IMG/VR virus record: IMGVR_UViG_3300035701_000035
Location: 1 to 58,729 of that record
Strand: one strand, 5' to 3'
DNA from: a virus
Lineage: Duplodnaviria; Caudoviricetes
DNA length: 58,729 nt
Both the position numbers and the translations under genes were made by a program. The notes below the pieces were generated by a model that did not search any database, was not told the DNA's origin, and worked only from the letters and a program-made list of their open reading frames with translations. This document shows, piece by piece, positions 21,857-55,422 of the stretch (position 1 is its first letter; every line of letters begins with the position of its first letter).

Positions 21857-21873
21857 TAAACTTATAAAGTTTA
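21857..21873. promoter_or_regulatory. 17-bp palindrome TAAACTT-N3-AAGTTTA (copy 1)
   Basis: taaacttataaagttta overlaps the stop of the 1143-aa gene, with an extra half-site at 21849-21855. The same palindrome recurs at 29545. Confidence 0.5.
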
Positions 21874-24800
21874 TAGTATAAATGGAAGCCATGAGTTTAT
21901 ATGAACATACCCATTATCATTATGTGTTGCACCTCCTTTTTTTACTTTTTTTGTTGCTCCATACATAGTATTAATAATATCAGAATTTTTACTATTACTT
22001 TTAAGTCCTTGAGATTTTGATCCACCATTTGCACAAGCTATTAGATCATCAGCACTCATATTTGGATTGTTTTCTTTACAGTCATCATATGCTGTTTGCC
22101 AAACAGTTTTACCACTACCAGCACCTTGACCTGTAACTGTTTTTGGAGTAGGTCTATATGCCATTTCTCCACCATTACCTGGAGTTACCTTATAGTTTTC
22201 ATACATTTGATTTAATGCATCTGTTCTCCATTTATTTGTAATTCCATTTGCATAATAATTTCTAACTTGATTTTTTAATGCTAATTTAGAATTATCAAAC
22301 TGTTGATTAGCAACTGTATTTTGATCATACATTCTTTGAGTAGTAGCCTGATTTAATAAACCATTTTGATTTCTAATATCATTTGCTTTTAACTCAAATT
22401 GATTTGCTATATTACTATTAGCATTATTATACTTAGCAAGTACATCAGCTGCATTCTTAGATGCTTGACCTTGTATACCTGCAGATCTTGAAGACAATCC
22501 TTGAGCTCCAGCAAATTGTGCTGCACCTTGAGTTTGTATGTTTGCTTGTTCTGAATTAGCAGCTAGTTCTCTTGTAGGATCTAAATAAGTAGGTCTTGGA
22601 GTTCCAAGATTTGCATATTGTCCATAAGGCATATATTTCTTAATACCCATTAGATCTGAAAATGCTCCAGTAGTTTTAATAGTATCTTGTAACCATGTTT
22701 GTGCACGACTACCTGGTACAGGATATTCTTGATCTTCTGTACATGGGCAACTACCATCTGGATTAACAGCTATCTCTATTTCAGTACCATCAGAGTTATG
22801 ACAAGGACATGTTTTTTTAGCATCTTCTTCTGTAAGTTCATCAGCAGGTATATCTTCATATACTAAGTTTCTTTTACCTACCATATATTTATGACCAGCT
22901 GTTGTATCACCATATGTAGTAGACTTTCCTGCACCATGTCCATACCAAGTATTATTAGTATAATCATAAGTATCATCTAAAGGAGAAATTTTATTACCAA
23001 TTGCACCATATAATTTTCCCATTGATGATTCATCGGCTGCTCCTGAATGTACAAGACTAACATTACCTAAGAAATTATCCATTGCATATTTTACATCAGG
23101 ATTATCATTATATGCACCTTTTTCATAATCTTGATATGCTTTTGCATATCCGTGCATTGTAGATTGTTGTAATACTCTGTCTCTTCCACTAGGATCTAAA
23201 GGAACACCAAGATTAGTTGACATTGCAGCTACTGTTGTAAAACCTTTATCATTCATACTTTTTATTGCAGCTGTAGCTTCAGGTAAAGTATATAGTTGAC
23301 CTGTTTTTGGATTTACATATTTTTTACTTATAACATCACTTGGTTTATCTAATCTATTACCTATATCAGAAAATAATTGTGGATCTACATCATTAGCTTC
23401 AAACATCAAGTTTCTTTTTTGATGCATTAAAGCTGCCTTTATAATTTCATCATCCTCTGGTAAATTACCATATTTAACAGACCATTTTCTATTTAGATCA
23501 GTAGTTGTTGCATTTTTACCTCTCCAAGCTTCAGGATTATCAACAATTTCTTTTGTATTTTTTATAATCTCAGCTCTAACAGTTGGATTTTCTAAATTAC
23601 TTTTAATTAACAAATATTGAGAAGCTGCAACTCTTCCTGATGCTGTATTAGGAAAACCTTCTAATCCATCATTTGCAATATCTTCTCCACTAGGAATTGT
23701 AAAACCAGAACTTTTTAATCTTTGAGTTGTAATTTTACCATCAGTACCTTTATGTTTTACATTAAGTTGTGGTTCTTTATAACCAGATGTTTTTGGATCT
23801 TTATTTGGATTTTTAGCTTTCCATTCTTCTAAGTGTTTTTGTTTTGCATTCCATATTGCTCTTTCTAATTCTTGATCAGTCATGTTAGAACCATCTACAA
23901 TTATACCAGTTTGAGCTTTTACCATACGTGTAATAGGACCTGATGCAGGAACTCTTTCAGATCTACCTTGATAGTTTTGAGACATACCAGCTCCCATAGA
24001 CATACCATACTCTGCTTGTGGTATATCAAAGAAAGGCATATCATAACCACCCATAGACATTCCATACTCTGCCATTGGAGGAGCTTGTTGTTGCATTTGT
24101 TGTTGTTGCATCATCATTGCTTCTTCTTCTGACATAGGTTGACCTTCTTGACCCATTTGTTCTTGTCCACCTCCTTGACCTTGTTGCATAACTTGTTGTA
24201 CAAGTCCAGTAGCTTCTTCTTGAGAAGCACCCAACTGAGTAAATACTTGTACTATCTCTTCAGGTTGAACACCATTTTCTAATAAACTCATAACAACTTC
24301 AGCAGGTTCAGCACCTCTTTGTAAAGCAGATTGAACTTCTTGTATAACTTGCATCATCTCATCTTCTCCACCACCTTGTTCTTGTGGTGCTCCTTGTTGT
24401 TGCTGTTGTTGCATCATTGCCATTTCTTCAGGAGATGGTTGTTGCATACCTTCTTGTGCTCTTCTTAGTCTTCTCATACCACCACCATACATCATCATCA
24501 TCTCTTCTTGAGACATCTGTGGTTGTTCTTGACTTTGTGCAACTGGTTGACCCTGATTCATTTCCTGAGCTTCTTCTTGTGGGTTTTGCTCATTCTCTGA
24601 TTCCATTGTCTCTTCTGAATTTTCCTGTTGTGACATTTGTTTTTTCAACTGGTCATTCAGTGTGCTGATTTCTTTAGCAGGTAGTATTTGTTCTTCAGTA
24701 ATACCACGTGCTTCCATACATGGTTTTGCTACAGCAGGTATACCTTGTGGGAATCCTTTCATTGACTCTTGTGCTAATGCAAGACATCCAAGTTTGATTA

Positions 24801-25302
24801 CATATTTTTTCATCATCAACTCAGCAGACTTTCTCTCTATTGCATCTGAGTCAGGATCTTCTAATATTTTTCTATACTTTTGAATATCATATTGTTTAGC
24901 AAGTTCTGCAGGAGTAAATGATTTGTTTGTACCACCTTTACCAAACATTGCAAGAACTTTAGGATCTTTAATCATCATACCTCTAGTATCACTAAAGATA
25001 AATGTATCTTCAGGAAGACTTAAAGGTACACCACCACTATGATGTCTTGGTCCTTTAATGATTTGATGTTCTGGTATTCCATCTCCATTTATGTCACCAT
25101 ATACAGTTTCACCTCCTTCTGCTTCTAAGTTAGCTTCTTCTCTAGGGACAGCAGTAATATACTTACTTTCTCTAAGTTTTGGCTTACCAATGTAAGCATT
25201 ATAATCTGCACCACCCATTGAAGGAACATCATTTACTAATGCACCTTGGACTTGATATCCTGTTCTTGCTTGTGGTAATTTTTTAATTCTAACTTTTATC
25301 AT
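21871..25302 (-). CDS. Modular virion cargo-like protein (1143 aa)
   Basis: EAEGGE...GPRHHSGGV region, Q/M/E-rich low-complexity tract, several AQxG and YGG motifs, C-terminal N/Q/A-rich coiled coil. Confidence 0.75.
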   Translation of the reverse strand: MIKVRIKKLPQARTGYQVQGALVNDVPSMGGADYNAYIGKPKLRESKYITAVPREEANLEAEGGETVYGDINGDGIPEHQIIKGPRHHSGGVPLSLPEDTFIFSDTRGMMIKDPKVLAMFGKGGTNKSFTPAELAKQYDIQKYRKILEDPDSDAIERKSAELMMKKYVIKLGCLALAQESMKGFPQGIPAVAKPCMEARGITEEQILPAKEISTLNDQLKKQMSQQENSEETMESENEQNPQEEAQEMNQGQPVAQSQEQPQMSQEEMMMMYGGGMRRLRRAQEGMQQPSPEEMAMMQQQQQQGAPQEQGGGEDEMMQVIQEVQSALQRGAEPAEVVMSLLENGVQPEEIVQVFTQLGASQEEATGLVQQVMQQGQGGGQEQMGQEGQPMSEEEAMMMQQQQMQQQAPPMAEYGMSMGGYDMPFFDIPQAEYGMSMGAGMSQNYQGRSERVPASGPITRMVKAQTGIIVDGSNMTDQELERAIWNAKQKHLEEWKAKNPNKDPKTSGYKEPQLNVKHKGTDGKITTQRLKSSGFTIPSGEDIANDGLEGFPNTASGRVAASQYLLIKSNLENPTVRAEIIKNTKEIVDNPEAWRGKNATTTDLNRKWSVKYGNLPEDDEIIKAALMHQKRNLMFEANDVDPQLFSDIGNRLDKPSDVISKKYVNPKTGQLYTLPEATAAIKSMNDKGFTTVAAMSTNLGVPLDPSGRDRVLQQSTMHGYAKAYQDYEKGAYNDNPDVKYAMDNFLGNVSLVHSGAADESSMGKLYGAIGNKISPLDDTYDYTNNTWYGHGAGKSTTYGDTTAGHKYMVGKRNLVYEDIPADELTEEDAKKTCPCHNSDGTEIEIAVNPDGSCPCTEDQEYPVPGSRAQTWLQDTIKTTGAFSDLMGIKKYMPYGQYANLGTPRPTYLDPTRELAANSEQANIQTQGAAQFAGAQGLSSRSAGIQGQASKNAADVLAKYNNANSNIANQFELKANDIRNQNGLLNQATTQRMYDQNTVANQQFDNSKLALKNQVRNYYANGITNKWRTDALNQMYENYKVTPGNGGEMAYRPTPKTVTGQGAGSGKTVWQTAYDDCKENNPNMSADDLIACANGGSKSQGLKSNSKNSDIINTMYGATKKVKKGGATHNDNGYVHINSWLPFIL
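23993..24072. repeat. 23-bp direct repeat encoding AEYGMSMG twice
   Basis: cccatagacataccatactctgc (23993-24015) and cccatagacattccatactctgc (24050-24072) differ by one base. Confidence 0.8.
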
Positions 25303-25310
25303 TGGTATAA

Positions 25311-28300
25311 TTATAAATATTCAACTTGTCCTCCTGCTGCTAGATACTGTTGTAGTTCATAGGGAGTCATTTCAACTTCATCATCTTCTTCATAGAATGG
25401 ATTAGCATATCCACCATCTTGCATATAACCTCCGTATCTTCCACGATTTGTGTTTGCTGAATTACCACTAGATGAAATACTGTTTTCATTAGAACCAGTA
25501 TTGTTATAATCATACAAACCTGTTTTAGAACCAAAATCTTGCCACCACCCTTTATTAGTGTTACTAGCCATACCTTGATTCTGCATTGGATCAACAGAAT
25601 TTAATGTGTTGTTATACTCCATTGGAGCTTGTTTCATTCTATTCCATGCACCTAATATACCATTACTAATTGCATTACCTGCAGCTAATGATGCTTCTGG
25701 ATCAACACCTATTACATTCTTACGTTTTCTTTTAATACCAACATATTGACTTTCTTGATTTCCAGAAACATCAGTTACGGGTTTACTATTTGGTTGAATA
25801 GGGCTATTTGTATAATTATAAGATTGCATACTTTCAGGTAGAGATGCTTCTTCAACATCTTCTGCACCAAAAAAGTTTTGCATATTATTTAAACTCATAC
25901 TATTAGCACTAGGATCAAAATCTACTTTTTTAGCTCCTGCTGGTGGTGTTTCTAATCCTATTTGAGCTCTATATAATTCTGGTATAGCAATATCTCCTCC
26001 ATAAGCATAATCAGTATAGTTTATTGGACCACCATATTCTTTTTCTTCTGTCCAATCTTTTTCTTCACCTCCAACATAGTCTCTAGAATTTATTTCTTGT
26101 TTTACTAATTGTCCTTTTCTATTTATACCTCTTCTTTCTTTTCCATCTTCTGATTTTTTAGTCTGCAAATATTCTCCTCTATTCATTGTACGTTGACCTT
26201 TACGGTGACTTAACATTTCTTGTAGTTTTCCTAAATCTTGCATAGGAACTCCATTACCGGCACCAGCACCATTTACATCATAAATATCAATCCATTTTTT
26301 ACGACCTCCTAATAAACCTTTTTTAGTAGTATAACTTGCTACAGGATTACCAGATACAAGACCATTATAAGATCTACCATCATTTAAATAGTATGGAGTA
26401 CCTTTTTGTTTAACCCATGAACCTTGTGATTGAACTAATGGATTCCAAGGCATTAAGTCTCTCCAACCACTTTGTGGTCTTACTTCTTTAGGAATGTAAT
26501 TTATTTTAGAATTTTGAATACATCTGTTGTAAGTTGCACTCCATGTAGTTCCAGGTCCACAGTTTGTTTGTGTAACAACATTACTTGAGCCAACATCATT
26601 ATAAGTATCTTGTAATGCTTGATCATAAAAATTTTGATAATCAATATAACCTTGTTCTTCATTATCATAATCAGTATCAAAGTTTCTATTTGGATTAGCA
26701 GCTTCCCAATCTTCTCTTTCCCCTTCTTTCCAGTCTTCCTTAGTCATCTTATCTTGCATACCTCTTCTATTTCCAGATTTGGTATTAACAGTTATACCAG
26801 TCTGAGCTTCTTCAAGACCATATTGTTGGTAATAGTCTTCATCATCTCCACCATAGATAAATTTAGTAAGTGGTTCTTCAGCATCCATATCAATGAATCC
26901 TCCAAATGCAGCTGTAGGATCTGTATTAGATGGTGATGTTTTAAATGCATCTTCAGCAAGATTTGGTTTATAACCATCTTGTGTTAATAAGTTTAAGATT
27001 TGTGGATTCCCTTGTGCATTTTTATATATTTCTTTTGATATAGCTGTATTAGAATTATTTTTTAAAGTATCAAAGAAAGAATTTTTTGTATTAGATATAT
27101 CATTAGTTAAAGTATCATCTCTTTTACCTTGTCCTGGAATACCTTCATTAGAAGGACCTCCATCTGCATACATGGATACCATTTTTTTAATAAACCTATT
27201 TTGAGCTGCACCACCTTTTTTGAATTCATCATCAGGATCTGAATAATTACCTTGATATAAAGTATCAGGTGTCTCTTGTAATAATGCAGGATCAATGGTT
27301 GGTTTTTCAATTTTATCAGGATCAAGAATTTTACTTGGACCTACATCAGTACCACATGGACAATTACCCATAATATCTGGAGCCATATAGTTTAATGCCA
27401 GAGGATCAGTACATTGACATGGATTTGCATATGCATCATATGTTTTATATCCTAAATAACCTAAACCTCCTCCAATTAAACTTGTTTTTAAACCGAGTCT
27501 ATATTTATAATTTATAGCATTTCTTATATCTGAACCATAAGAACCTTCATTAGCAGGGTTAAGTATATTAGGTCCTAAAGCACTATTTGCATAACCATAT
27601 GTTGGTAATGATATTTCATCAACATTTTTAGCAGATGTTCTAAATAATTGATTTAGACCAGTAGTTCCAAGTGTTTCTAAAGTTCTACCAATTTTACCTT
27701 TCCAACCTAGTTTATCAAAAGTATTAGGAGCTACATCAGATATTTCATTAAGTCTTCCTACACTCTTTCCTAACACACCATTAGTATTCCACATACCATT
27801 CATGTAATTAGGAAATGGTGTACCATACTTACCAGTTCTTCCATATATTGGATTTATATCAATTGGTAGATTACCATTAGGACTATCAAGATAATCATCA
27901 TAAAATTCTCCATCGAAATTTTTTGGAGGATAACTACCTTCATAACCTGTTCTAATATTCTTTAATTTATTAGTTTCTAATAATCCTTGATCAGTAGTTA
28001 AGTATTTACCAAATCTACTTGCAGTAGTACCCAATGGTCTATTTATATCATACTTAGTTTTAGCACCAGTTGTAAGAGGATTACCAAGTGGATCAAATAC
28101 TTTTAATTCACCTGTTGCAGGATCTTGATTATAATAAAATCTATTTTTAAATGTAACTTCTTTAGCTTTAGCAGGAGTTGTACCAAAAGGTAATGGTTGA
28201 TTTGGTCCAAATGTATGTTTTAATTCAAAAAAGTTATTACCTTCATCATCTGTACCACCAACAATTTTTGAATCTAATGGATATATTCCACTAACTAAAC

Positions 28301-29501: not shown

Positions 29502-29518
29502 AACATATTATATATATA

Positions 29519-29529
29519 AATATACTAAA
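29519..29529 (-). promoter_or_regulatory. Candidate late-promoter box TTTAGTATATT
   Basis: Identical 11-mer at 46132-46142, variants at 48483-48492 and 52516-52537; always intergenic, just upstream of a start codon. Confidence 0.5.
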
Positions 29530-29544
29530 TTTTAATTTAATGCA

Positions 29545-29561
29545 TAAACTTTAAAAGTTTA
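29545..29561. promoter_or_regulatory. 17-bp palindrome TAAACTT-N3-AAGTTTA (copy 2)
   Basis: taaactttaaaagttta overlaps the stop of the 1529-aa gene, 15 nt upstream of the GTATATT box. Confidence 0.5.
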
Positions 29562-32500
29562 ATGATCTTCAATGATATATCCATCTTTAACATACTCATC
29601 AATTTCTTTTTTTGATAGACGAGTTACAACTCCACCTTTTTTATTTTTATAACCAGGTGTATCACTTATTTGTTTATATGCATTACCTCCTGTAAATGGA
29701 ATTGATATGTCCCTATTCCATTTATCAAATGTTTGTTTATTCATTTTTTTAACAATCTGTTGTCTCCATTTTTCAAGTTGTTCTGGTTTAGCATTTTGTA
29801 TATCTTCTATTTTTAAATCAAGACCTGCTCTCATTTCCATTACAACATGTAGAGCTGGAGCAGTAGAAAAATAATCATTTTTTTGTGCGTTTAACAATTC
29901 CTGATAAGTATTTGGTAATCTATCTTCAGTATTATTTATAGTTTTTAAATTCCTACGATTTAACATTTGATTATTATCTAAGTTTGTAGTATGAGATATG
30001 TTATCATATAAATTTCTACCTTTTTCATCTGGAGTTGTCTTTTTCATAAGATCAATAAGTTCAGGATCATAAAACTTTTGTTTAAAGTTTTGTATACTTG
30101 AATTAGGAAATAAATTAGAAAATAATTGATCTCTTTCATATGTACCACGTAAAGTTCTAAACAAAGCCGTTGCAGGATCTTCAGGATACATTTTATCAAA
30201 GGTAGCTCTATTATCTAAATATTCAAGTTGTTTATTACCTAAATCAGACAACTCATCTATTGTATAAAAATCACTTTCACCTAACATTTTTTGAGGATCT
30301 GATGCCATATTCATCATAGCATTTCTTGCTGCCCATCCATCTGAAAAATCTTTAAATTTAAAATCACCTACTCCTTTAAATAAATCTGGACCATGTTCTG
30401 GAATATTTAATAAATAATTTTTAAGAGAATTACCTGCATCTATTAAACCTTCTTCTTTCCAATTTGTATCATAATCAGCAGGATCAATATTATACCATTC
30501 TTCACCACGATGAGGGTCATCACCATATTTTATTGCTGAATTTCCACCTGGACTATTTCTATATTTTGTTAAATCAACTTTAGGAACATCAGTTTTTATA
30601 ACTGGACTTTTTGGTTTAGACATACTCCTCATAATTGGAGTTATACCAGGTAAAATATCATCTACATTATGTAAACTGTTTATTGTATTTCTAAATGCAT
30701 TGGTTGGTTTTAACAGTTTACCAATAGATTCCAAACCATATTGAGCTTTAGGAAGTTCTCCTCCTTTGTTAAATTTTGGTTCAGCAGAACCATATACTTT
30801 TCTAGTAAAATCAAAGTTTCCTGTTTTTAATCTTTGTAACTCCTCATTTTGTTTTTTACTTGCAAAATTATCTTGTTGTTTAATTTGTCTAATTAAATCT
30901 TTATAAAACTTTTTATGTTTAGGTGGAAGTAAATAACTAGTATATGTATCTATAAGTTGTGTATACTGATCAGGATTTTTAATTTCATGTTCAAACATAT
31001 TTGTTTTTCCAAGACCAGTGTTTGATGCTTCTTCAACATAAGCTCTAAGTATATCATTTTCTTTATTTTTTGTTATGCTTGTTAGAAAATCACCATCTTG
31101 ATTAGTTTCATATATAAACTTCTTAGGTTTTCCAATTTGTTTTTCTAAATCAAATCCTACAGTATTATTTACTACTGGCATTGTTTGCCCTACAACAGGT
31201 ACATTAAAGTTTGCAATTCGTGCAGATTGAGCAACAGGAATGATATTAGTAAAATCATCTGCACCAAATAAAGAAAGTTGATTAGAAATAGTTTTTGCTT
31301 CTGGTACTATTGGTTTTAATTCTTGTAAAGCTTTAATTACTTGACCTACACCACCACCTCCTTGTAATCTTTGAAGAGCACCTCCATTTTTTCTATTAAA
31401 TTTAGTTGGTAGTCTACCAATTGAATGATTGTGTCGTTGTGTATTAAGTCCTGGATTTTGTTTTAATACAGAAAATTCTCCAAAACCTAAACCTTTACCT
31501 AACTTATTTAAAGGATTAGTTATAGATTCAAAAACAGGTTCTGCTGTATGTAAACCAGGATGACCTAGTGCAATACCAGAACCTGGAGTTGCAGCATCAT
31601 AAAGTCCTGTATATTGAGTATTAAAATTAGGATTACTTAATACAGTACCAGGTTTACGTAAAGCATTTAAACTTTTAAATGTATTAAGTGCAGGCTTTGT
31701 ACCCCAATAAGCAAATAAAGCATTTAATGCAGCAGATCCATAATTTCCTGCTTGAAACTCATCCTTAACATCTTTAATATTTTCTGGTACTTCTAGTAAA
31801 AGACCAGAAGTCATTAATGGATTATCAAAACCTGAAAGAATAGTTCCTAAACCTTTTTTTAAACCAATAGTATTTTTAACTCCTGAACCAAGTAAATTAT
31901 TTCCTGCAGCCATTCTATTAGCATACTTAAGATTACCTAATGCATTAAAACCTTTACCTAATCCATATGATGTACCCATATCTACTAACTCATGACCAAG
32001 AGCATTTGTAAGATTTCCTTGATCATAACCTCTTCTTAAATTCATTCCAATTTTAAATGGATTAAATGCTTGTAGTGGTGTAAAATTTCTTAATATTGAA
32101 AGAGGATTATCATTACCCATTACACCCAGATCAACACCTTTTTCTTTTTGAATACCAAGTTTAGTGTCATAACTTAAATTACTATCTCCCCACATTTCTT
32201 CTTTAGGGTTTGCTGCAAAATATAAAGCATCTAATGGATATTTAAGTACATCTCTAAGTTTGTTACCTGAAGTATTTTCATTAATACCATTCCAATTTTT
32301 GATATTCTCTTTGTTATGCTTTTTTGCCATACCAAATGATGTATTTGCTACATCATTATATAAATCACTATAAGTTTGTGTTTTACCATTTACTTTTTCA
32401 TCTGACTCTAACTCTAATAGTGTTTTATAAATTCTTTCAGGATGATTTTGTACTGTATTTAATATATCAAGTTTACCTGCTTGAGTAGTTCCTGCTTTAG

Positions 32501-34148
32501 TTAATGCTTGGTTTATAAAGTATTTTAAGTCATTTGCAGATAAATTAGAAATATATTTACCTGCTGCATCATTAAACTCTTTTAACTCTCCTTCTTTTCT
32601 AGCTTCTTGAGCACCTACTTCATAGTCTACACGTTTTTTTGCTGCTACTTGTGATCTCATATCTGCAAACTGATCATCTATATTTGCATATGTATAGTTT
32701 GGATCGTAATTATTTTTTGGATCTTTTTTATATTTATTATATTCTTTATCTCCTCTTTCATATTTATTTTTAATATAACCAAGATATTCTTCAGGATTTG
32801 TCATACTAGTTTTGTTCTTTTCAAAAGCAGATACTGGATCATCTGACAAAAATGTATTATCATCTAGCCAACTACTTTTAGTTGGTCCTGATAAACTATT
32901 AACTAACTCCTCTTGTACTTGAGCATATACATCATCAATAATTTTTTTAGTAGGTTCTGCAAACTTAGTTTTTAAACCAGTTTTAGTTCCTACTTTAGGA
33001 GAAAGTTCTGAAATAACTTGGTCTGTAGTTTTTCCTTCATTAACTGCTTTTTTAACTACACTTTGAGTTACCTCACTTGTATAGTTTTCCATAGCACCTT
33101 TCATAAGAGGTCCCATTTGTTCTTCAACTTGTTTACGATCTAATCCCCAAGTGTTTACAAACTGATCTGCTTGAAATCCATTTTTTAAAATTCTATTACG
33201 TACAATATCTAGTGGATATAAATCAGTAAATCCTCTATCATTTTTAATCACAAGATATTTATTTTTTAACTGATTTTCAAGAGATTCCATTAAAGGTTGT
33301 CCATCTTCACCTAATACGGGATTACCTTCTCCATCTATTACAGGAGTTTTACTATCTGTCACATGTGTTGGTAAAGATTGAAATGGTTTTATTTTATCTC
33401 CTTTTTTAGATTTATTAAAAGTTTCATAATATGTCTTGGCACTTTCATCATAGTCATTACTCCTTCTTTTACTGTCTTCTATTCTTGCTTCTTCTCGTCT
33501 AAGATTATAATCTTCTTGTTTTTTTTGTTTAGTATAATCTTCTTGAGCTATTTCTTCTTGATTAATAAGTTGAAAAGCTTCTTCAGTAATACATTGTCCT
33601 TTATATGGAATCTTACCTTCACCACATACTAAAGGCTCTCCTGTCTCAGTAAAAGGTGCATGATAATCTGGAATAAATTGTTCAGGTATTTTAATAGTTT
33701 TTTCTTCTCTTTGATTACCTGCATATGGAAGACCTAACTTTTTTTCTAAACTGTATCTATATGCATTTTCTGCAATTGGATTTCTTAAATAATTACGAGA
33801 CTTGTATGTAAAGTCATGTTCAGGAATAGTTTCCCCTTGTGTCCAATTATTTATTTGACTAAATGTATTAGCTTCTTCTGGTGTTCTTGGTCTACTATAG
33901 TCTTGTGCACCTATGTCATAAGTAGGAACTTGTTCTACTGTAGGAAGATCTTGAGAATTAAAATTATATCCAAAATTATTTTGTACTCCTGTCATAGGTT
34001 CATTAACAACAGGTGCAGTTTTTTCAATATCCCGTGGATGTAATCTTGGATAAACAAAATTTCTTATATTATTACTTAGTTTTTTTAATCCACCACGTTG
34101 TGCCTTTGGTAATGATTGTGGAATACTTGTTATTCTATATTTTGCCAT
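29559..34148 (-). CDS. Modular virion cargo-like protein (1529 aa)
   Basis: Segments bounded by LPKAQRGG, RKNGGALQRLQGGG, NKGGELPKAQYG and KKGG; no catalytic motif recognised. Confidence 0.75.
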   Translation of the reverse strand: MAKYRITSIPQSLPKAQRGGLKKLSNNIRNFVYPRLHPRDIEKTAPVVNEPMTGVQNNFGYNFNSQDLPTVEQVPTYDIGAQDYSRPRTPEEANTFSQINNWTQGETIPEHDFTYKSRNYLRNPIAENAYRYSLEKKLGLPYAGNQREEKTIKIPEQFIPDYHAPFTETGEPLVCGEGKIPYKGQCITEEAFQLINQEEIAQEDYTKQKKQEDYNLRREEARIEDSKRRSNDYDESAKTYYETFNKSKKGDKIKPFQSLPTHVTDSKTPVIDGEGNPVLGEDGQPLMESLENQLKNKYLVIKNDRGFTDLYPLDIVRNRILKNGFQADQFVNTWGLDRKQVEEQMGPLMKGAMENYTSEVTQSVVKKAVNEGKTTDQVISELSPKVGTKTGLKTKFAEPTKKIIDDVYAQVQEELVNSLSGPTKSSWLDDNTFLSDDPVSAFEKNKTSMTNPEEYLGYIKNKYERGDKEYNKYKKDPKNNYDPNYTYANIDDQFADMRSQVAAKKRVDYEVGAQEARKEGELKEFNDAAGKYISNLSANDLKYFINQALTKAGTTQAGKLDILNTVQNHPERIYKTLLELESDEKVNGKTQTYSDLYNDVANTSFGMAKKHNKENIKNWNGINENTSGNKLRDVLKYPLDALYFAANPKEEMWGDSNLSYDTKLGIQKEKGVDLGVMGNDNPLSILRNFTPLQAFNPFKIGMNLRRGYDQGNLTNALGHELVDMGTSYGLGKGFNALGNLKYANRMAAGNNLLGSGVKNTIGLKKGLGTILSGFDNPLMTSGLLLEVPENIKDVKDEFQAGNYGSAALNALFAYWGTKPALNTFKSLNALRKPGTVLSNPNFNTQYTGLYDAATPGSGIALGHPGLHTAEPVFESITNPLNKLGKGLGFGEFSVLKQNPGLNTQRHNHSIGRLPTKFNRKNGGALQRLQGGGGVGQVIKALQELKPIVPEAKTISNQLSLFGADDFTNIIPVAQSARIANFNVPVVGQTMPVVNNTVGFDLEKQIGKPKKFIYETNQDGDFLTSITKNKENDILRAYVEEASNTGLGKTNMFEHEIKNPDQYTQLIDTYTSYLLPPKHKKFYKDLIRQIKQQDNFASKKQNEELQRLKTGNFDFTRKVYGSAEPKFNKGGELPKAQYGLESIGKLLKPTNAFRNTINSLHNVDDILPGITPIMRSMSKPKSPVIKTDVPKVDLTKYRNSPGGNSAIKYGDDPHRGEEWYNIDPADYDTNWKEEGLIDAGNSLKNYLLNIPEHGPDLFKGVGDFKFKDFSDGWAARNAMMNMASDPQKMLGESDFYTIDELSDLGNKQLEYLDNRATFDKMYPEDPATALFRTLRGTYERDQLFSNLFPNSSIQNFKQKFYDPELIDLMKKTTPDEKGRNLYDNISHTTNLDNNQMLNRRNLKTINNTEDRLPNTYQELLNAQKNDYFSTAPALHVVMEMRAGLDLKIEDIQNAKPEQLEKWRQQIVKKMNKQTFDKWNRDISIPFTGGNAYKQISDTPGYKNKKGGVVTRLSKKEIDEYVKDGYIIEDH

Positions 34149-34150
34149 GA

Positions 34151-37100
34151 CTAAATTATTTCAAATGTATAACCTAATTTTTCTAATTTTCTTTTAGTAG
34201 CTTCATCTATTTCATCTCCTAATTCATATTCCATTTCTCCACCTTTTTCCCATTGCTTAATAGTTTTAAAAGTTTTAGGATCTACTAGAAAATTGTTTTC
34301 AATATTAAACGGCTTACCTCCTATTAAACCAAGAGCTTCTACATTTTGTAATGGTTTAAAAAAAGTTTCTCCTAAATAATATTTAGCAGCATCACTTTGA
34401 TTTATTATTCCTGAACTTCTTTTTTCCCATGGATGTAAATCCCAAACATCATTAGCTTGCCAATGCATACCTTCTGGTGTATCTTTCATATCCCATCTAT
34501 AACCACCTCTAACACCATAAGTATCATTGTCATAAATTGAATGTATAAAGTCAGATTTAGGACTTGATTGAACATGATATGTTTGTTGCCATGGTTTATG
34601 ATATTCAGTCTCTTTTTTTGTTAAAGGATGTTTTGATAAATCATAATGTTGTTTTGATAAATTAATTAATTGATCTTTTATATCATCATACTTTTGATCT
34701 TTAAGACCATGAAATATTATATCATTATTTCTTTCAGAGAAAAAATCTGGAGTATGCTCAATACCTAACATTTTATAAGTATTCTCACCTGTTTGTTCTA
34801 ATGTATTATACTCTTGTTGTTGACCTAAACCAACAGCCCATGCATCTAATCTTCTTTGTCCAATATCTTCTAACGTTTTCATAAGAAGAGGGTCATATGC
34901 ATCAAGAGCACCCATTTTATCTTTTGTAGAAAGTTTATTCCATGAAGCTTTAGATGTATTTAATTGAGTAAGTAACTGATCTAATAATTCATTTCTAGGT
35001 CCATATCTTAAACTCATACCAGTTCTAAATGGTCTATTAGAATTATTAACTGTATTATTATATAACTCTCCAGGCATTTCAGTAATTTTATCTTTGATAT
35101 GATAACTAGCAGGATTAATTCCTTTATATGCAAGTAATCTCAATAAATCACCTTCATTATAATTAACAATATTTTTTATTATATTCTTACCTGCAACTTG
35201 TAAACCTGTTTGAGCTTTAACTAGTTCTCCTCCTTGTTCTGCTTTAACAATATTAGAATTTTGATTTGGTTTTTTTTCAACAAAATCATTAAATAATCTA
35301 AGTTTATCTTTTGTTTCATAAGGAAGCATTAAATCTATAAGTTGAGGTGCTATGTCAGAATCTCTAAAATTCATTGATTCTTGCAATTTTTTAAGATGTT
35401 CTTCTGTAAAGTTTTCATTAACAGGATCATACAACCCTTTGCTTTCTAAATATTTTCTTGCTACATCTACTCTTGCTTTTTGTTCATCAGGATTTTCTAG
35501 ATAAGGTTTATTAGTTACCATTATATCTTCAATCAATTTATTAAATTGATCTTTTGGTGGTGTTTCATAAGGTTTAAACTTAATAGGATCTGCAAATATT
35601 TTATCTACACTACCCATTACTGAAGCATGTGATAATTCATGTGTTCTTGTCCATGGATTATCTGTATTTAAATATACACTATGTTTATCTTTATTAAAAT
35701 CATTTAATATTTCATCAAATTGTTCAGAATAATATTTTTTTTCCTTTTTATTTAAAGATGTGTTATTGACAGAATCATAATATGGTTTAAATAATTCTGA
35801 TTCTTTGGATAGTGGAGGGGAATAAAAACCTTTAGCTTTTAGTTCTTCAAATGAAATTTGATCTTTAGGTAACACACCAATATCATTAATCTTTACAGTT
35901 TCAATATTGTTTAATATTTGCTGTCTGTAAGCTTCAGCTTCTTCACCAACTTGGTCAATAGGTTTACCTACCATACGTGCATATCTCTCTTTAAAAAGAG
36001 GACTGTTAGCCATTCTTATTAAGTAATCTTTATCTGTATCTGTAACAGTTTGTTCTCCACCTTCTTGTGCTTTATCTAATTCAGGTACTGAAATATCTTC
36101 TATAATATAACCTCCTTTAGCATACTCTTGTATTTCTTCTGGACTAAGTTTTGCATTAATAAAACCTGGAGCAACATCTTTATAATGTTCTGCAAAATAT
36201 CGTGCATCTTCATCTGAATCAAATCTCATTGCTTCTCTAGAAGAAGGATCATAGTCTCCTAATACTAACTGACCATTTTCATCTTGTATTTGTGGTACAG
36301 CATAGTTATCCATACTTGCCATATAATGAGTACCCGTATCACCATTATCAAACTGATATGGATTGTCTGGTAAATTAATCATTCTTTTAGCAGCAGGATT
36401 ACCAAACTCATTAGCATATGCAAGTTTGGATTTCATCATTGCATTTGTATAGTCTTGCAAATGCTCAGGAAGAGGTATATTATATTCTCCTTCTTCATTA
36501 TGTGAATCAATTACGGCTTGACCTTCAGGAGTATTTTCTCTCCAATCTCTATATGCATTAAGTTTATCTTGTAATGAATAATAGTCATTCATTGTCCAGT
36601 CAGTTGGGTTTCCTATTTGACCTTCTATACCTCTAATTTCTTGTTCCCATTTTTCTGGAGAAGAAGCTCCCCCATCTTGATAGTACTTTGCATGAGGATC
36701 ATAAATCTTATTCTTTCTAGATGAAGGTTTTTCAAATAAATAATTCTCAGCAAAGAATTTATTAGTAGCATCAAGACTTCTTGAATATGATCTAGAGTTT
36801 TTATTTTTTGTTTTATGTACTCCTCCTTTTTTAAATGTAATAGGATTAGTTTGTGTTAAAATAAATGGTTTACCAAAGGCATCCATCAACTGAGTTTGTT
36901 TTTGTCTAAATTTATCAGACATATTCCATTTAGGATCATAGTTTTTAGGAAAAAATCCCCATGAATCTCTTGTAGTTAATTGAAATTCATTTTGAGCAGT
37001 TCTTTGTAAAAGCCCCATATGACCTGCTACATTATCTATTGGATTTACAGGACTATATTCAAAACTAAATAATGGGGGTGGTTTTGATGTGTCAGGTTGT

Positions 37101-38362
37101 ATATCAAAAGGAATTGTTTCTTTACCATATGAATCAAATAGTTTATGAAAATTTTCTTTTGTTTCATCAGCATCATAATCTTGCCAAGTATATTTCAAAA
37201 AATTTTTAGATAAAGCATGATCACGTATTTTTATATTAGGGTAGTCATAGTCTGAGTGAGGATAAGATTTATTAAAACGATGATACATCAAGTCTCTTGC
37301 ACTTAATGGTTCTTCATTTTGAACTTGAGAGTTCATTAAATAAGCTTTTAATGGTCCATACTCATTTATTAAAGCTTCTAGTCCAGCATCACTATCAAAA
37401 TCATAATCAGTAGGTTCAAATCCAGTATCTATTCCTCTAAAATAATTTGCTATTAAATCTCTTTTACCAAAACCATACATATTTTTTGAAGCCGCTGTTG
37501 TATTACCATCTCCAAAATATTTTGCTTTATAATCTTTTTTAAATAAAGAATCTATTATATCTTGTTTACTTCTATATGGCATAGCATTTAATCTAGCAAT
37601 TCTTTCACCTGCTAGTTTAACAGGATATGTAAGTAGATTATTTGAACGAGTACCTTGTTTTACTAAACTAGCAAGCCATCTATCACCAGGACCTCCTCCT
37701 TTTTTAAAAGATTGTTTTTCTAAATCTATAGGAATTTCTCTTATAACACTAGCTCCTGGAATCTTATGTAAACCAGTATTTTTTTGTACATTTTTTGTAA
37801 CACCATTATTTGCTACTAACTGTAAATCATATACTATATTGTCTGTATCAATAGTATCAGTATCTATATTAATATATGGAAGATTTTTATATGGTGAATA
37901 AGTTCTATAACCATCTTTCTGTGGAGTCATTCCTCCATTTCTCATAAAGTCTTCAGGTTGTTCTAACTCTGGTTGTAATCTATAATTAGTAGTAATTTCA
38001 GTACCAGCAGGTAAATCTTTTGCAGCTACTAAGTATCTTTTATTTCCTTGAGATATATTTACTGCTGTAGGATTATTTTCTGAATGATTATGATTTTTAC
38101 CTACTATTGGAGTAGCTTGATTATTAATATGTGCTAAACCAATTACGTCTCCTTTTCTAATTGGTTCATTAATAAATAAACCATTACCTTGTATATTAGA
38201 TTTTTTTACACTTAGTTGTTTATCTACTGAAGATCCACCTTGTTTCATAGATGACATTTGTGTAGGATTATTTAAACCCACAACTACATCTTTCTTCTGA
38301 GTAGGAGCTTTTGCACTTCCTAACTTCTTAAGAGATTCTATAAGTACTTTTTTATTATACAT
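34151..38362 (-). CDS. Modular cargo-like protein (1403 aa) with SET domain and zincin metallopeptidase domain
   Basis: SET motifs GNGLF, NHNHS, AAKDLPAGTEITTNY; zincin motif THELSH...NPDEQKAR; two related DxW..P...GKPF domains. Confidence 0.85.
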   Translation of the reverse strand: MYNKKVLIESLKKLGSAKAPTQKKDVVVGLNNPTQMSSMKQGGSSVDKQLSVKKSNIQGNGLFINEPIRKGDVIGLAHINNQATPIVGKNHNHSENNPTAVNISQGNKRYLVAAKDLPAGTEITTNYRLQPELEQPEDFMRNGGMTPQKDGYRTYSPYKNLPYINIDTDTIDTDNIVYDLQLVANNGVTKNVQKNTGLHKIPGASVIREIPIDLEKQSFKKGGGPGDRWLASLVKQGTRSNNLLTYPVKLAGERIARLNAMPYRSKQDIIDSLFKKDYKAKYFGDGNTTAASKNMYGFGKRDLIANYFRGIDTGFEPTDYDFDSDAGLEALINEYGPLKAYLMNSQVQNEEPLSARDLMYHRFNKSYPHSDYDYPNIKIRDHALSKNFLKYTWQDYDADETKENFHKLFDSYGKETIPFDIQPDTSKPPPLFSFEYSPVNPIDNVAGHMGLLQRTAQNEFQLTTRDSWGFFPKNYDPKWNMSDKFRQKQTQLMDAFGKPFILTQTNPITFKKGGVHKTKNKNSRSYSRSLDATNKFFAENYLFEKPSSRKNKIYDPHAKYYQDGGASSPEKWEQEIRGIEGQIGNPTDWTMNDYYSLQDKLNAYRDWRENTPEGQAVIDSHNEEGEYNIPLPEHLQDYTNAMMKSKLAYANEFGNPAAKRMINLPDNPYQFDNGDTGTHYMASMDNYAVPQIQDENGQLVLGDYDPSSREAMRFDSDEDARYFAEHYKDVAPGFINAKLSPEEIQEYAKGGYIIEDISVPELDKAQEGGEQTVTDTDKDYLIRMANSPLFKERYARMVGKPIDQVGEEAEAYRQQILNNIETVKINDIGVLPKDQISFEELKAKGFYSPPLSKESELFKPYYDSVNNTSLNKKEKKYYSEQFDEILNDFNKDKHSVYLNTDNPWTRTHELSHASVMGSVDKIFADPIKFKPYETPPKDQFNKLIEDIMVTNKPYLENPDEQKARVDVARKYLESKGLYDPVNENFTEEHLKKLQESMNFRDSDIAPQLIDLMLPYETKDKLRLFNDFVEKKPNQNSNIVKAEQGGELVKAQTGLQVAGKNIIKNIVNYNEGDLLRLLAYKGINPASYHIKDKITEMPGELYNNTVNNSNRPFRTGMSLRYGPRNELLDQLLTQLNTSKASWNKLSTKDKMGALDAYDPLLMKTLEDIGQRRLDAWAVGLGQQQEYNTLEQTGENTYKMLGIEHTPDFFSERNNDIIFHGLKDQKYDDIKDQLINLSKQHYDLSKHPLTKKETEYHKPWQQTYHVQSSPKSDFIHSIYDNDTYGVRGGYRWDMKDTPEGMHWQANDVWDLHPWEKRSSGIINQSDAAKYYLGETFFKPLQNVEALGLIGGKPFNIENNFLVDPKTFKTIKQWEKGGEMEYELGDEIDEATKRKLEKLGYTFEII
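35230..36075 (-). other. Zincin-like metallopeptidase module
   Basis: HELSH at 35627-35641 followed by YLENPDEQKAR (candidate third ligand Glu). Confidence 0.7.
37945..38215 (-). other. Minimal SET-domain lysine methyltransferase
   Basis: LSVKKSNIQGNGLFINEPIRKGDVI...KNHNHSENNPTA...LVAAKDLPAGTEITTNY contains GxGLF, NHS and ExxxxY motifs in canonical order. Confidence 0.88.
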
Positions 38363-43842: not shown

Positions 43843-43844
43843 AA

Positions 43845-53284: not shown

Positions 53285-53779
53285 TTATTTCTTTTTACGT
53301 GCATTCTTCTTTGCACCAGCAATTCTATCAGCAGCAGTTGCTTTGTTAAATGGAGGAGCTAATGCAGCAAACTTAGTTGCTTTAGTTGCACCACCTACTT
53401 TCATTTTAGTTTTTACAGGTCCACCTTTAGCTTTAACTCGTGTAGGAGGAATTGTATCAGAATAAAGATTAGTTTTACTTGTATTAAAAGTTGGACTAGA
53501 TCTAACTCGTTCTATATTATCTTTTTTTAGCAATTCTGGAACAGGACTATATCCTCCTATTGTAGGCATTTTTCCTATACCCATTTTATTTGCTAGATTA
53601 ATATCATTATTATAACGCTCATCTATTCTTTCAGTATCTTCTTCACTTAATGGACCTTGTGTTGTGTTAGTAACTATACCATTTTGAGCTTTTTTTAAAG
53701 ATGACATAACAGTCTTTGTTCTAGTTTCAAAATTCTTTCTGAATGTAGTTATCGGATTTTCTTTAGTAGTCTTTTTCAT
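53285..53779 (-). CDS. Small basic protein (164 aa) with KAQNG, KAKGG and KVGG motifs
   Basis: ORF track; Lys-rich termini; tight operon spacing. Confidence 0.8.
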   Translation of the reverse strand: MKKTTKENPITTFRKNFETRTKTVMSSLKKAQNGIVTNTTQGPLSEEDTERIDERYNNDINLANKMGIGKMPTIGGYSPVPELLKKDNIERVRSSPTFNTSKTNLYSDTIPPTRVKAKGGPVKTKMKVGGATKATKFAALAPPFNKATAADRIAGAKKNARKKK

Positions 53780-53780
53780 T

Positions 53781-53933: not shown

Positions 53934-53935
53934 GA

Positions 53936-54217: not shown

Positions 54218-54232
54218 AATATATATTTTAAA

Positions 54233-54783: not shown

Positions 54784-54785
54784 GA

Positions 54786-55420: not shown

Positions 55421-55422
55421 AA

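What the first reader, a model, noticed from the sequence alone, without database searches (positions are those of the whole stretch)
21871..38362. Candidate new system: cargo polyproteins punctuated by xxGG / KAQxG motifs that bracket individual effector domains
Seen: four consecutive large genes repeat two related motifs at apparent domain borders. One is [F/Y/M]xxGG (MKQGG, MRNGG, FKKGG, YQDGG, WEKGG, FNKGG, FRYGG, YADGG, MQDGG). The other is x-[K/R]-AQ-x-G (LPKAQRG, LPKAQYG, LVKAQTG, LDKAQEG, LPRAQLG, LYRAQIG, LRRAQEG, MVKAQTG). They often occur as a pair, e.g. KGGELPKAQYG and QGGELVKAQTG. The SET domain lies exactly between MKQGG and MRNGG, and the zincin between KAQEGG and KAEQGG. The same motifs occur in the tiny basic proteins (LKKAQNG, LPKAQKG, MKKGG, FEMGG) but are not evident in the tail proteins. 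Inference: a shared protease-cleavage and/or capsid-loading tag that lets the phage pack swappable effectors and release them as small mature proteins.
Basis: partly seen in the sequence, partly recalled or inferred. Interest (0 to 1): 0.85.

Follow-up and report, generated by a model that had tools for sequence, protein, structure and literature searches.

The report
Joint and end tags on phage cargo
Four large proteins that this uncultured crAss-like phage probably carries in its particle are strings of swappable modules joined and capped by one short conserved peptide, which looks like an address or connector tag, although nothing yet shows that it is cut.

Summary
In the four genes (5471 aa), [KR]AQxG occurs 8 times against 0.20 in shuffles. 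[FYWM]xxGG occurs 19 times against 4.5. None of 1000 shuffles reached either count. The other 12,977 aa of window proteins are at chance.

The motifs are the edges of a longer, family-specific peptide: GG, a short strand, the acidic helix L[TS]xxEIxxY, xxGG, YIVEE, then either (ISVPxL)xKAQxG or xxYQxGG. It sits at module joints. It also ends cargo genes: 38 of 105 copies in 55 related loci, and 114 of 141 database representatives. Basic N-terminal leaders ending in LxKAQxG begin the next cargo gene and two small basic proteins.

Homology breakpoints cluster at the motifs, and modules move between genes. A profile finds 892 protein clusters. Pfam, PDB and the paper searches I ran hold no description of it.

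My reading is an uncut packaging/connector tag on crassvirus cargo ("polyvalent") proteins. Cleavage is unproven: no known maturation protease family was found in 5 related genomes.

The scan has noted the same pattern on other DNA.

The parts
34151..38362 (-). Cargo gene A (1403 aa). Order of parts: leader, SET-like block, variable modules, joint tag, HExxH module, variable module, C-terminal cap.
   Evidence: ORF. 317 homologs with mosaic coverage.
29559..34148 (-). Cargo gene B (1529 aa)
   Evidence: Orthologs in related loci.
25311..29501 (-). Cargo gene C (1396 aa)
21871..25302 (-). Cargo gene D (1143 aa). Marginal similarity to Cellulophaga phage phi4:1 gp040, which its record annotates as a virion protein from MS/MS.
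   Evidence: Two collinear BLASTP segments, each E = 0.001.
38249..38362 (-). Basic N-terminal leader of A (MYNKKVL..KLGSAKAP..), conserved in A-type orthologs
37931..38248 (-). MKQGG, SET-like block, MRNGG
   Evidence: The block is present in 104 of 120 homologs.
36668..36865 (-). Conserved small module bounded by FKKGG and YQDGG
   Evidence: Present in about 87 of 120 homologs. Coordinates.
36056..36166 (-). Internal joint tag of A: GFINAKLSPEEIQEYAKGGYIIEDISVPELDKAQEGG
   Evidence: Core HMM 49.1 bits. Conservation ends at the G of KAQxG.
35246..36055 (-).
   Evidence: HExxH is kept in 8 of 8 homologs of this segment. The segment is in only 8 of 120 homologs of A. No Pfam or PDB match.
35204..35233 (-). 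Short joint GGELVKAQTG
   Evidence: Homolog coverage rises from 8 to 37 here.
34154..34252 (-). C-terminal cap of A (WEKGG..ELGDEIDEATKRKLEKLGYTFEII)
34089..34148 (-). N-terminal leader of B, ending LPKAQRGG
30735..30773 (-). Short joint FNKGGELPKAQYG in B. The homology block to L034/L046 starts at residue 1125-1128.
29562..29645 (-). C-terminal cap of B (..KKGGVVTRLSKKEIDEYVKDGYIIEDH)
   Evidence: Core HMM 27.1 bits. Alignment A3.
29400..29501 (-). N-terminal leader of C (MKKQVRIRKALPGETPGYYNKTAKFLKKAAMG)
   Evidence: Alignment A4: conservation ends at the K-A-x-x-G position.
25314..25433 (-). C-terminal cap of C (GGYMQDGG..MTPYELQQYLAAGGQVEYL)
25956..26009 (-). Joint YAYGGDIAIPELYRAQIG in C. 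Further motif sites in C: LPRAQLGG 28698-28721, FRYGG 28974-28988, FKKGG 27210-27224, YADGG 27156-27170.
25210..25302 (-). N-terminal leader of D (MIKVRIKKLPQARTG..), conserved in all D-type orthologs seen
23905..24495 (-). D: MMYGGGMRRLRRAQEG (24448-24495) and MVKAQTG (23905-23925), flanking a Met/Gln-rich stretch
54514..54783 (-). Small basic protein (89 aa) with the leader ..KKALPKAQKG. The leader is conserved in orthologs.
53285..53779 (-). Small basic protein (164 aa) with SSLKKAQNG at residue 30. Orthologs carry ALPKAQEG or SIKKAQDG at the same place.
53936..54217 (-). Small Gly-Gly-rich basic ORF (93 aa) holding MKKGG twice and FEMGG
38362..45550 (-). Context: muzzle protein (38362-43842), tail ring protein 1 (43845-44888) and ring protein 2 (44888-45550). 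No KAQxG in any of them.
   Evidence: Pfam PF25731, PF24228, PF25702. Motif counts.

Best explanation
The four genes encode cargo proteins of an uncultured crAss-like phage, that is, proteins packed in the particle and ejected into the host. They are of the 'polyvalent protein' type: strings of exchangeable modules.

The xxGG and LxKAQxG motifs are the conserved edges of one clade-specific peptide of 25-45 residues. Its order is: aromatic-x-x-GG, a short strand, an acidic amphipathic helix (L[TS]xxEIxxY), xxGG, YIVEE, then either (ISVPxL)x[KQ]AQxG or xxYQxGG.

Whole copies lie at joints between modules. The helix-GG-YIVEE part also forms the natural C-terminal cap of separate cargo genes. A basic strand plus LxKAQxG forms the N-terminal leader of the next cargo gene and of small basic proteins.

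I think the most likely function is an uncut address and connector tag. On this reading it directs proteins into the capsid or tail lumen. It also keeps successive cargo units linked, covalently when the genes are fused and by cap-leader docking when they are split. The link would be an extended joint that unfolds easily for ordered exit through the tail.

Because the tag is the only sequence shared by otherwise unrelated modules, it is also the place where modules are exchanged.

Shown: the anatomy, the specificity, the conservation and the exchange points. Inferred: virion location, tag function and the absence of cleavage.
For: Phage type and gene position:
- Crass_capsid, ring 1, ring 2 and muzzle families match.
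- The four genes follow the muzzle gene, as C1 and C2 do in PhicrAss001 (passages of PMC10172136).

Motif specificity:
- In 55 related loci, cargo ORFs (115,789 aa) hold 69 [KR]AQxG against 5.3 expected, and 449 [FYWM]xxGG against 102 expected.
- Muzzle proteins (69,399 aa) hold 0 against 0.9, and 95 against 57.
- In a complete relative (105 ORFs, 36,622 aa), 5 of 6 [KR]A[QN]xG sites are in cargo or small basic proteins.

One peptide:
- 116 unique seeds show invariant L, E, I, Y, GG, Y and E positions. Information falls below 1 bit right after KAQxG.
- Leu at position -2 is 78% in 203 contexts, although it was not part of the search pattern.

Ends and joints:
- 105 copies lie in 71 ORFs. 38 end within 8 residues of the stop codon and 67 are internal.
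- Of 82 unique copies, 31 are C-terminal, 22 are followed by a KAxxG-type tail and 15 by aromatic-xxGG.
- 114 of 141 database representatives end with the module.
- Caps are conserved only from KxGG onward. Leaders are conserved only up to KAQxG.
- The ends of caps are acidic and the leaders basic: mean charge -0.9 against +3.5 over 80 junctions. The D-to-next-gene junction shows no such contrast.

Exchange points:
- Residues 202-514 of A match B-type ORFs of L009 and L034. Residues 1168-1520 of B match A-type ORFs of L001 and L009.
- Homologs carry SET, Amidase_2, GH24, PG_binding_1, YkuD, VanY, CBM_14 and ART-PolyVal domains.

Selection acts on the protein: codons at 85 unique motif copies follow background usage.

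Spread: 892 clusters at E <= 0.001, and the top 150 each have 2-4 copies.

Precedent: T4 capsid targeting sequences are shared by small basic internal proteins and the enzyme Alt, which has propeptides at both ends (passages of PMC9026906 and PMC7411985).

Against cutting:
- Known protease families were found in 0 of 5 relatives.
- In PhicrAss001 gp45 the modelled portal-bound domain, residues 425-552, begins AFGGW. That aromatic-GG site is therefore continuous in the mature virion.
Against: - Virion location is inferred from gene position alone. No significant sequence similarity to PhicrAss001 gp45, gp46 or gp47 was found (best E = 0.56; no PDB match).
- No partner for the tag is known.
- The tag is not predicted to fold on its own. 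The 49-residue model has mean pLDDT 64 and shows only two short helices.
- The T4 precedent combines targeting with cleavage, so the analogy supports the cleavage rival just as well.
- Single chains combine cell-wall enzymes with SET or ART-type domains. These should act in different compartments, and separation by cleavage would make sense.
- The protease searches cover only known families. The S77 control matched nothing anywhere.
- The gp45 seam is not shown to be homologous to the tag. The core HMM finds no copy in gp45-gp47.
Confidence: 0.45

Rival explanations
1. Polyprotein processing. On this reading the GG and/or KAQxG sites are cut by a phage or host protease, in the prohead or after ejection. 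Cutting would remove the leaders and release the modules as separate small proteins.
For: - Leaders of 15-35 residues ending in one conserved motif are shared by small basic proteins and large enzyme-bearing cargo. T4 capsid targeting sequences are the same, and gp21 cuts them off.
- Conservation stops exactly at the G of KAQxG.
- In another subclade the small basic proteins carry a different shared leader motif at the same place (RDYPLAPTP or RPDTPLAPTPEP; L059, L063, L064). That is what a co-evolving recognition site would look like.
- Cell-wall and cytoplasmic enzyme types share one chain.
- An HExxH module is conserved in 8 of 8 homologs of that segment.
- Iyer et al. 2017 predicted processing of polyvalent proteins by zincins (passages of PMC5512222).
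- From memory, not from a call: the helix L[TS]xxEIxxYxxGG resembles the double-glycine leader LSxxELxxIxGG, with one extra residue.
Against: - No S78, ClpP, S49, C39 or C48 family was found in 0 of 5 related genomes, 4 of them at least 97% complete. The S77 search gave no match, and its control also failed.
- No protease family was found in the window.
- The HExxH module is in only 8 of 120 homologs.
- Natural C-termini run 6-8 residues past the central GG. None of 558 ORFs in the related loci ends in GG.
- Split genes keep both tag halves.
- One aromatic-GG site of PhicrAss001 gp45 lies inside a continuous modelled chain.
- The crAss001 paper contains no words beginning cleav-, proteol- or protease.
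Confidence: 0.3
2. Passive linkers. On this reading the peptide is only a flexible spacer inherited from a common ancestor. It is kept because it tolerates recombination, and no partner recognises it.
For: - Every motif site lies in a stretch with pLDDT below 50 in the model of A residues 481-1061.
- The tag alone is not predicted as a fold.
- Breakpoints cluster at it.
Against: - Near-invariant positions persist across 892 clusters whose flanks cannot be aligned.
- Codon usage shows selection on the residues and not on the DNA.
- The same half-tags sit at natural N- and C-termini and on small basic proteins, where nothing is being linked.
- Cap and leader carry opposite charges.
Confidence: 0.15
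3. Chance or composition. On this reading the motifs reflect Gly-, Lys- and Gln-rich composition.
For: GG itself is only mildly enriched in the four genes: 53 observed against 39 expected, and 12 of 1000 shuffles reach it.
Against: - None of 1000 shuffles reaches the observed count of either motif.
- The motifs are conserved at orthologous sites in relatives of about 34% identity.
- Leu at -2, outside the search pattern, is 78%.
Confidence: 0.01

Closest known systems
Cargo proteins C1 (gp45) and C2 (gp46) of Bacteroides phage PhicrAss001 (Bayfield et al. 2023, PMC10172136; passages read)
   Same: - The genes lie directly after the muzzle gene and before the giant RNA-polymerase-associated genes, in a genome with crassvirus capsid, ring and muzzle proteins.
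- gp45 has a basic N-terminus and is rich in aromatic-GG sites: 20 GG in 842 aa. Some of these flank its resolved segments.
   Different: - No significant sequence similarity (best E = 0.56).
- gp45-gp47 have no copy of the tag core and no KAQxG.
- Here there are four genes of 1143-1529 aa with enzyme modules, against two genes of 842 and 534 aa.
Polyvalent proteins of phages and conjugative elements (Iyer, Burroughs, Anand, de Souza, Aravind 2017, PMC5512222; abstract and passages read)
   Same: - Many unrelated effector domains share one polypeptide encoded next to virion genes, with extensive mosaicism.
- One homolog carries the ART-PolyVal domain of that study.
   Different: - That paper proposes zincin MPTase processing. 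It has no occurrence of 'linker' or 'crAss'.
- Here no MPTase-PolyVal match was found.
- The defining feature here is a conserved joint and end peptide.
T4 capsid targeting sequences with gp21 processing (PMC9026906, PMC7411985; passages read)
   Same: - A short leader is shared by small basic internal proteins and by enzyme cargo.
- T4 Alt has propeptides at both ends.
   Different: - The motif is different. The T4 cleavage consensus is recalled from memory, not taken from a call.
- No gp21-like or other known prohead protease was found.
- Tags also occur internally, as joints.
- Cleavage is untested here.
Docking domains of multi-protein PKS/NRPS assembly lines (recalled from memory; suggested by earlier finding e1-5991622)
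   Same: A conserved C-terminal peptide of gene n is followed by a conserved N-terminal peptide of gene n+1. Fused versions occur in relatives.
   Different: No homology, and binding is not shown. This is an analogy of logic only.

Membership tests
Crassvirus cargo proteins (C1/C2 of PhicrAss001) | Encoded between the muzzle gene and the RNA-polymerase-associated giant genes of a crassvirus-type virion module | tested here: met
   Muzzle PF25731 (E = 1.6e-20), ring 1, ring 2 and Crass_capsid match. The order muzzle, A, B, C, D, 1068 aa, 2470 aa, 3729+ aa is and is conserved in relatives.
Crassvirus cargo proteins (C1/C2 of PhicrAss001) | Sequence homology to gp45 or gp46 | tested here: not met
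   BLASTP best E = 0.56, and 0.68 for D against gp45. phmmer against PDB chains found none.
Crassvirus cargo proteins (C1/C2 of PhicrAss001) | Physical presence inside the virion | not testable with these tools
   The only indirect support is that D has two collinear segments, each E = 0.001, with phi4:1 gp040. That record annotates gp040 as a virion protein from MS/MS.
Polyvalent proteins (Iyer et al. 2017) | Several distinct effector domains in one polypeptide of a phage, with mosaic architectures | tested here: met
   Homologs of A carry SET+GH24+PG_binding_1, SET+VanY, SET+YkuD, Amidase_2 and ART-PolyVal. In the window's own A only a sub-threshold SET (21 bits against 22.4) and an HExxH are recognisable.
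Polyvalent proteins (Iyer et al. 2017) | Zincin-like MPTase as processing hub (common in the family, not obligatory) | tested here: not met
   No Pfam match at E <= 0.1 in A-D. The HExxH segment is in 8 of 120 homologs. The ESM Atlas gave only a weak lead to LPD23 at 0.84.
T4-type capsid targeting sequence with prohead protease | Short N-terminal leader shared by small basic internal proteins and larger cargo | tested here: met
   Leaders ending in LxKAQxG are found on B, on D (as QARTG), on C-type orthologs and on two small basic proteins. They are conserved in relatives.
T4-type capsid targeting sequence with prohead protease | A prohead protease gene (S77, S78, ClpP-like or S49) | tested here: not met
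   0 of 5 related genomes for S78, ClpP and S49. S77 also gave no match, but its control failed too. None was found in the window.
T4-type capsid targeting sequence with prohead protease | Leader removed in the mature virion | not testable with these tools
   This needs virion N-terminomics.
Double-glycine leader with C39 peptidase | N-terminal LSxxELxxIxGG leader (consensus recalled from memory) and a C39 peptidase | tested here: not met
   The helix has one extra residue before GG and lies at C-termini or joints, not at N-termini. PF03412 was found in 0 of 5 genomes.
GG-X polyprotein processing by clan CE proteases (adenovirus or ASFV type; recalled from memory) | A clan CE protease and a hydrophobic-x-G-G site | tested here: inconclusive
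   PF02902 (C48) was found in 0 of 5 genomes. Adenain (C5) was not searched. Here the aromatic residue lies three residues before GG, not two.

The most novel reading that the evidence does not exclude
This branch of crAss-like phages may use a two-part peptide code. One part is a basic N-terminal leader ending in LxKAQxG. The other is an acidic C-terminal helix-GG-YIVEE cap. On this reading any module carrying the code is loaded into the particle. Successive cargo proteins would be strung head to tail, by fusion or by cap-leader docking, so that they leave through the tail in gene order. Because every unit carries the same ends, effectors could be exchanged between phages as ready-made cassettes. 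A still unknown protease may trim the code afterwards.
Probability: 0.3. Interest if true: 0.8.

Novelty: new variant of a known kind. Interest (0 to 1): 0.62.

Why it matters
How crassviruses select, load and eject several megadaltons of cargo protein is an open question (PMC10172136). A short, conserved, clade-wide peptide at every cargo end and joint gives a concrete thing to test: mutate it, fuse it to a reporter, or look for its density in maps.

It also gives a practical rule for cutting giant unannotated phage ORFs into modules for function prediction. It shows how effector domains (cell-wall enzymes, SET, ART and others) are shuffled between phages. If it is a loading tag, it could be used to pack foreign proteins into such phages in laboratory phage-host pairs.

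Tried and rejected
- **Cap-leader docking.** Complex prediction on the B-type C-terminal cap (alignment A3, residues 25-60) against the C-type leader (A4, residues 1-40) gave no verdict: score 0.20, mark 0.32. It counts neither way.
- **AlphaFold2 of A residues 481-1061, 25-row alignment.** Mean pLDDT was 43, too weak to define domains. I note only that every motif site lies in a stretch with pLDDT below 50, and that two borders of better-predicted blocks fall just after YQDGG and about 10 residues after KAQEGG.
- **AlphaFold2 of the 49-residue joint, 48 rows.** Mean pLDDT was 64, with two short helices and no autonomous fold. I ran no fold search on these models because they are too poor.
- **Known family or structure for the tag.** Pfam on all 48 members gave only scattered hits with E >= 0.023. 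The PDB profile search gave a best E of 0.15.
- **Search in deposited phages.** A gave 1 record covering 5% of the query. The 51-residue joint and D gave no match. The muzzle protein finds Flavobacterium and Cellulophaga phages at about 25% identity. Their downstream genes lack the tag core and KAQxG.
- **DNA-level recombination signal.** Rejected, because codons at the motif follow background usage.
- **HExxH module as the universal processing protease.** Rejected: it is in 8 of 120 homologs.
- **Idea that GG is a natural C-terminus.** The small ORF 53936-54217 ends ..LYGG, but none of 558 ORFs in related loci ends in GG or GG plus one residue.
- **Alternative leader motif in large cargo.** PL[AS]xTP was found in 0 of the 261 held proteins and locus ORFs. 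The loci that carry it are too short to include cargo genes.
- **The search for related loci with A alone** found nothing.
- **Paper searches.** 'Crassvirales' with 'polyvalent protein' returned 0 papers. 'crAss-like', 'cargo' and 'SET domain' returned only the crAss001 structure paper. 'crAss-like' with 'prohead protease' returned 11 papers, 9 listed, none on this topic judging by title and abstract.
- **Supplementary files** of papers were not seen. The mass-spectrometry tables of the crAss001 paper could bear on whether gp45 is intact.

Full report
**What the window is**

The window is a 58.7 kb virus record with about 30% G+C. All long ORFs are on the minus strand. Pfam identifies four crassvirus virion proteins:
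- a major capsid protein, cut by the window edge (57762-58718; E = 2.2e-23);
- tail ring protein 1 (43845-44888) and ring protein 2 (44888-45550);
- the muzzle protein (38362-43842; E = 1.6e-20).

Directly downstream lie the four genes of the finding. I call them A (34151-38362, 1403 aa), B (29559-34148, 1529 aa), C (25311-29501, 1396 aa) and D (21871-25302, 1143 aa). Genes of 1068, 2470 and more than 3729 aa follow them. In PhicrAss001 this position is held by cargo proteins C1 and C2, followed by the RNA-polymerase-associated proteins. All of these were detected in virions (passages of PMC10172136).

So the four genes are cargo genes by position. They have no significant sequence similarity to gp45, gp46 or gp47 (best E = 0.56) or to any PDB chain. 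D has two collinear weak segments, each E = 0.001, with Cellulophaga phage phi4:1 gp040. That record annotates gp040 as a virion protein from MS/MS.

**Check of the observation**

Counts against 1000 shuffles per set:
- Four genes (5471 aa): [KR]AQxG 8 observed against 0.20, and 0 of 1000 shuffles reach it.
- Four genes: [FYWM]xxGG 19 observed against 4.5, and 0 of 1000 reach it.
- The other 12,977 aa of window proteins: 0 against 0.19, and 7 against 5.5.
- Six small basic proteins (630 aa): [KR]AQxG 2 observed against 0.01.

The pattern repeats in relatives. In 55 related loci the cargo ORFs (115,789 aa) hold 69 [KR]AQxG against 5.3 expected and 449 [FYWM]xxGG against 102. Muzzle proteins (69,399 aa) hold 0 against 0.9 and 95 against 57. 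The protein that follows D (12,345 aa) holds 0, and 3 against 3.8.

I also examined a complete relative with direct terminal repeats (G003; 105 ORFs; 36,622 aa). There, 5 of 6 [KR]A[QN]xG sites lie in cargo or small basic proteins. The tag core occurs only in the A- and B-type genes.

**What the motifs are**

They are not free-standing. Protein A has 317 homologs, of which the best 120 were held. These align only in blocks, and coverage depth steps sharply at the motif sites. Collecting the contexts shows one recurrent peptide. Its order is:
- aromatic-x-x-GG;
- 3-5 residues and a short strand ([YF]IE[AL][ED]);
- L[TS]x[ED]EIxxY;
- x[KR]GG;
- YI[VI]E[DE][IL];
- then either SVPxLx[KQ]AQxG (or directly LPKAQxG), or xxYQxGG.

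In 116 unique copies, L, E, I, Y, GG, Y and E are nearly invariant. Information drops below 1 bit immediately after KAQxG. In 203 unique KAQxG contexts, Leu at -2 is 78% although it was not in the search pattern. A GG lies within 10 residues upstream in 84 of the 203.

The window holds one full copy inside A (36056-36166; 49 bits) and one as the C-terminal cap of B (27 bits). It also holds reduced joints: FNKGGELPKAQYG in B, GGELVKAQTG in A and YAYGGDIAIPELYRAQIG in C.

**Ends and joints**

An HMM of the core finds 105 copies in 71 of 544 ORFs in the 55 loci. Of these, 38 end within 8 residues of the stop codon and 67 are internal. Among 82 unique copies, 31 are C-terminal, 22 are followed by a KAxxG-type tail, 15 by aromatic-xxGG, 6 by another GG and 8 by none of these.

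A profile search of 1.84 billion cluster representatives finds 892 proteins at E <= 0.001 and 483 at E <= 1e-10. Each of the top 150 has 2-4 copies. Of 141 new representatives, 114 end with the module.

Gene order is conserved across relatives: muzzle, A, (B), C, D. Each type has a conserved basic leader:
- B: MAKYRITSIPQxLPKAQxG
- C: MKKxVRIYKAxxGxGxYINKTAxFLxKAQxG
- D: MxKVRIKKLPQARTG

Aligned caps are conserved only from KxGG onward. Aligned leaders are conserved only up to KAQxG. An internal joint therefore reads like a cap plus the end of a leader. Across 80 distinct junctions the last 10 residues upstream average -0.9 in charge and the first 12 downstream average +3.5. The junction from D to the next gene shows no such contrast.

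Two small basic proteins of the window carry the leader motif, and their orthologs keep it.

**Exchange of modules**

Breakpoints were counted only where the subject protein continues beyond the end of the match. The share within 12 residues of a motif, against the expected share:

| Gene | Observed | Expected |
|---|---|---|
| A | 60% | 15% |
| B | 22% | 2% |
| C | 29% | 13% |
| D | 31% | 10% |

Modules also move between genes. Residues 202-514 of A match B-type ORFs of L009 and L034. Residues 1168-1520 of B match A-type ORFs of L001 and L009.

Six homologs scanned with Pfam carry SET, Amidase_2, GH24 lysozyme, PG_binding_1, YkuD, VanY, CBM_14 and ART-PolyVal. This is the architecture of the 'polyvalent proteins' of Iyer et al. 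2017. That paper predicts zincin processing but does not mention linkers or crAss phages.

Codons at 85 unique KAQxG copies follow background usage: GCT 46 and GCA 34; CAA 65 and CAG 20. Selection is therefore on the peptide and not on a DNA recombination site.

**Cut or not cut**

Nothing here can show cleavage.

For cleavage:
- The T4 precedent. Short capsid targeting sequences are shared by small basic internal proteins and the enzyme Alt, and gp21 removes them. Alt is trimmed at both ends.
- Conservation stops sharply at the motif.
- A different shared leader motif occurs at the same place in the small basic proteins of another subclade.
- Cell-wall enzymes and cytoplasmic-type enzymes share single chains.

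Against cleavage:
- No S78, ClpP, S49, C39 or C48 family was found in 5 relatives, 4 of them at least 97% complete. The S77 search is uninformative because its control failed.
- No protease was recognised in the window.
- The HExxH module, although conserved in 8 of 8 homologs of its segment, is in only 8 of 120 homologs of A.
- Natural C-termini run 6-8 residues past the central GG, and split genes keep both half-tags.
- In PhicrAss001 the modelled portal-bound domain of gp45 (residues 425-552) begins AFGGW. One aromatic-GG site is therefore continuous in the virion. That site is not shown to be homologous to the tag.

Structure prediction was weak. The docking test gave no verdict.

**Verdict**

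The anatomy is solid. The peptide is a clade-wide joint and end tag on crassvirus-position cargo proteins of the polyvalent type, and it marks the points of module exchange. My estimates for its function are:
- uncut address/connector tag: 0.45;
- protease site: 0.30;
- passive linker: 0.15.

I found no description of it in Pfam, PDB or the paper searches named under Tried and rejected. The same pattern was noted earlier by this scan on other genomes, with readings that agree. I reached the tag anatomy and the head-to-tail idea before reading those notes. From them I took only the lead to look at PhicrAss001 gp45.

Noticed in passing
L059, L063, L064 (orthologs of window 54514-54783): In another subclade the small basic proteins carry RDYPLAPTP or RPDTPLAPTPEP where this phage has LPKAQxG. 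Several small paralogs in a row share that alternative leader. I could not check whether the large cargo proteins of those phages switch motif too.
   Followed up: partly
window 53285-55647, minus strand: A cluster of seven small, strongly basic ORFs lies between the capsid gene region and the tail genes. One matches DUF6321 (54233-54514; E = 6.6e-18). They may be DNA-associated internal proteins.
   Followed up: partly
window 53936-54217 (-) and 53874-54236 (+): A 93-residue Gly-Gly-rich basic ORF ending ..LYGG overlaps a 120-residue ORF on the opposite strand. Which one is real was not settled.
   Followed up: no
window 55787-56407, minus strand: A GIY-YIG endonuclease gene (E = 1.8e-9) sits among the structural genes, just downstream of the capsid gene region. 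It looks like a homing endonuclease.
   Followed up: no
window 27354-27419 (C) and 22741-22809 (D): Both C and D contain a CxC..(16-17 residues)..CxC motif (CQC..CPC and CPC..CPC). The L001 ortholog of D has a similar Cys cluster. It may be a metal-binding knuckle.
   Followed up: no
window 24043-24660 (D residues 215-420): A long Met/Gln/Glu-rich low-complexity stretch (runs of Q, MMMM) is flanked by MMYGGGMRRLRRAQEG and the MVKAQTG joint. It is conserved in the L001 ortholog.
   Followed up: no
L057 28737-31424 (Cellulophaga phage phi4:1 gp040): This virion protein of a cultured, distantly related phage has four [FY]QxGG sites and a stretch YQNGG..KSGGELTQEEV that resembles the start of the tag. 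It has no full tag.
   Followed up: partly
window 50304-50507, minus strand: A 67-residue ORF with a weak zinc-ribbon match (Elf1-like; E = 5.5e-4, below the cut-off) lies among the tail genes.
   Followed up: no
P0002, P0003 compared with window 35246-36055: The HExxH module sits at residues 770-1045 of A, but at 1071-1345 in P0002 and 1127-1402 in P0003 (96-99% identity). This is a recent relocation of one module within otherwise similar proteins.
   Followed up: partly
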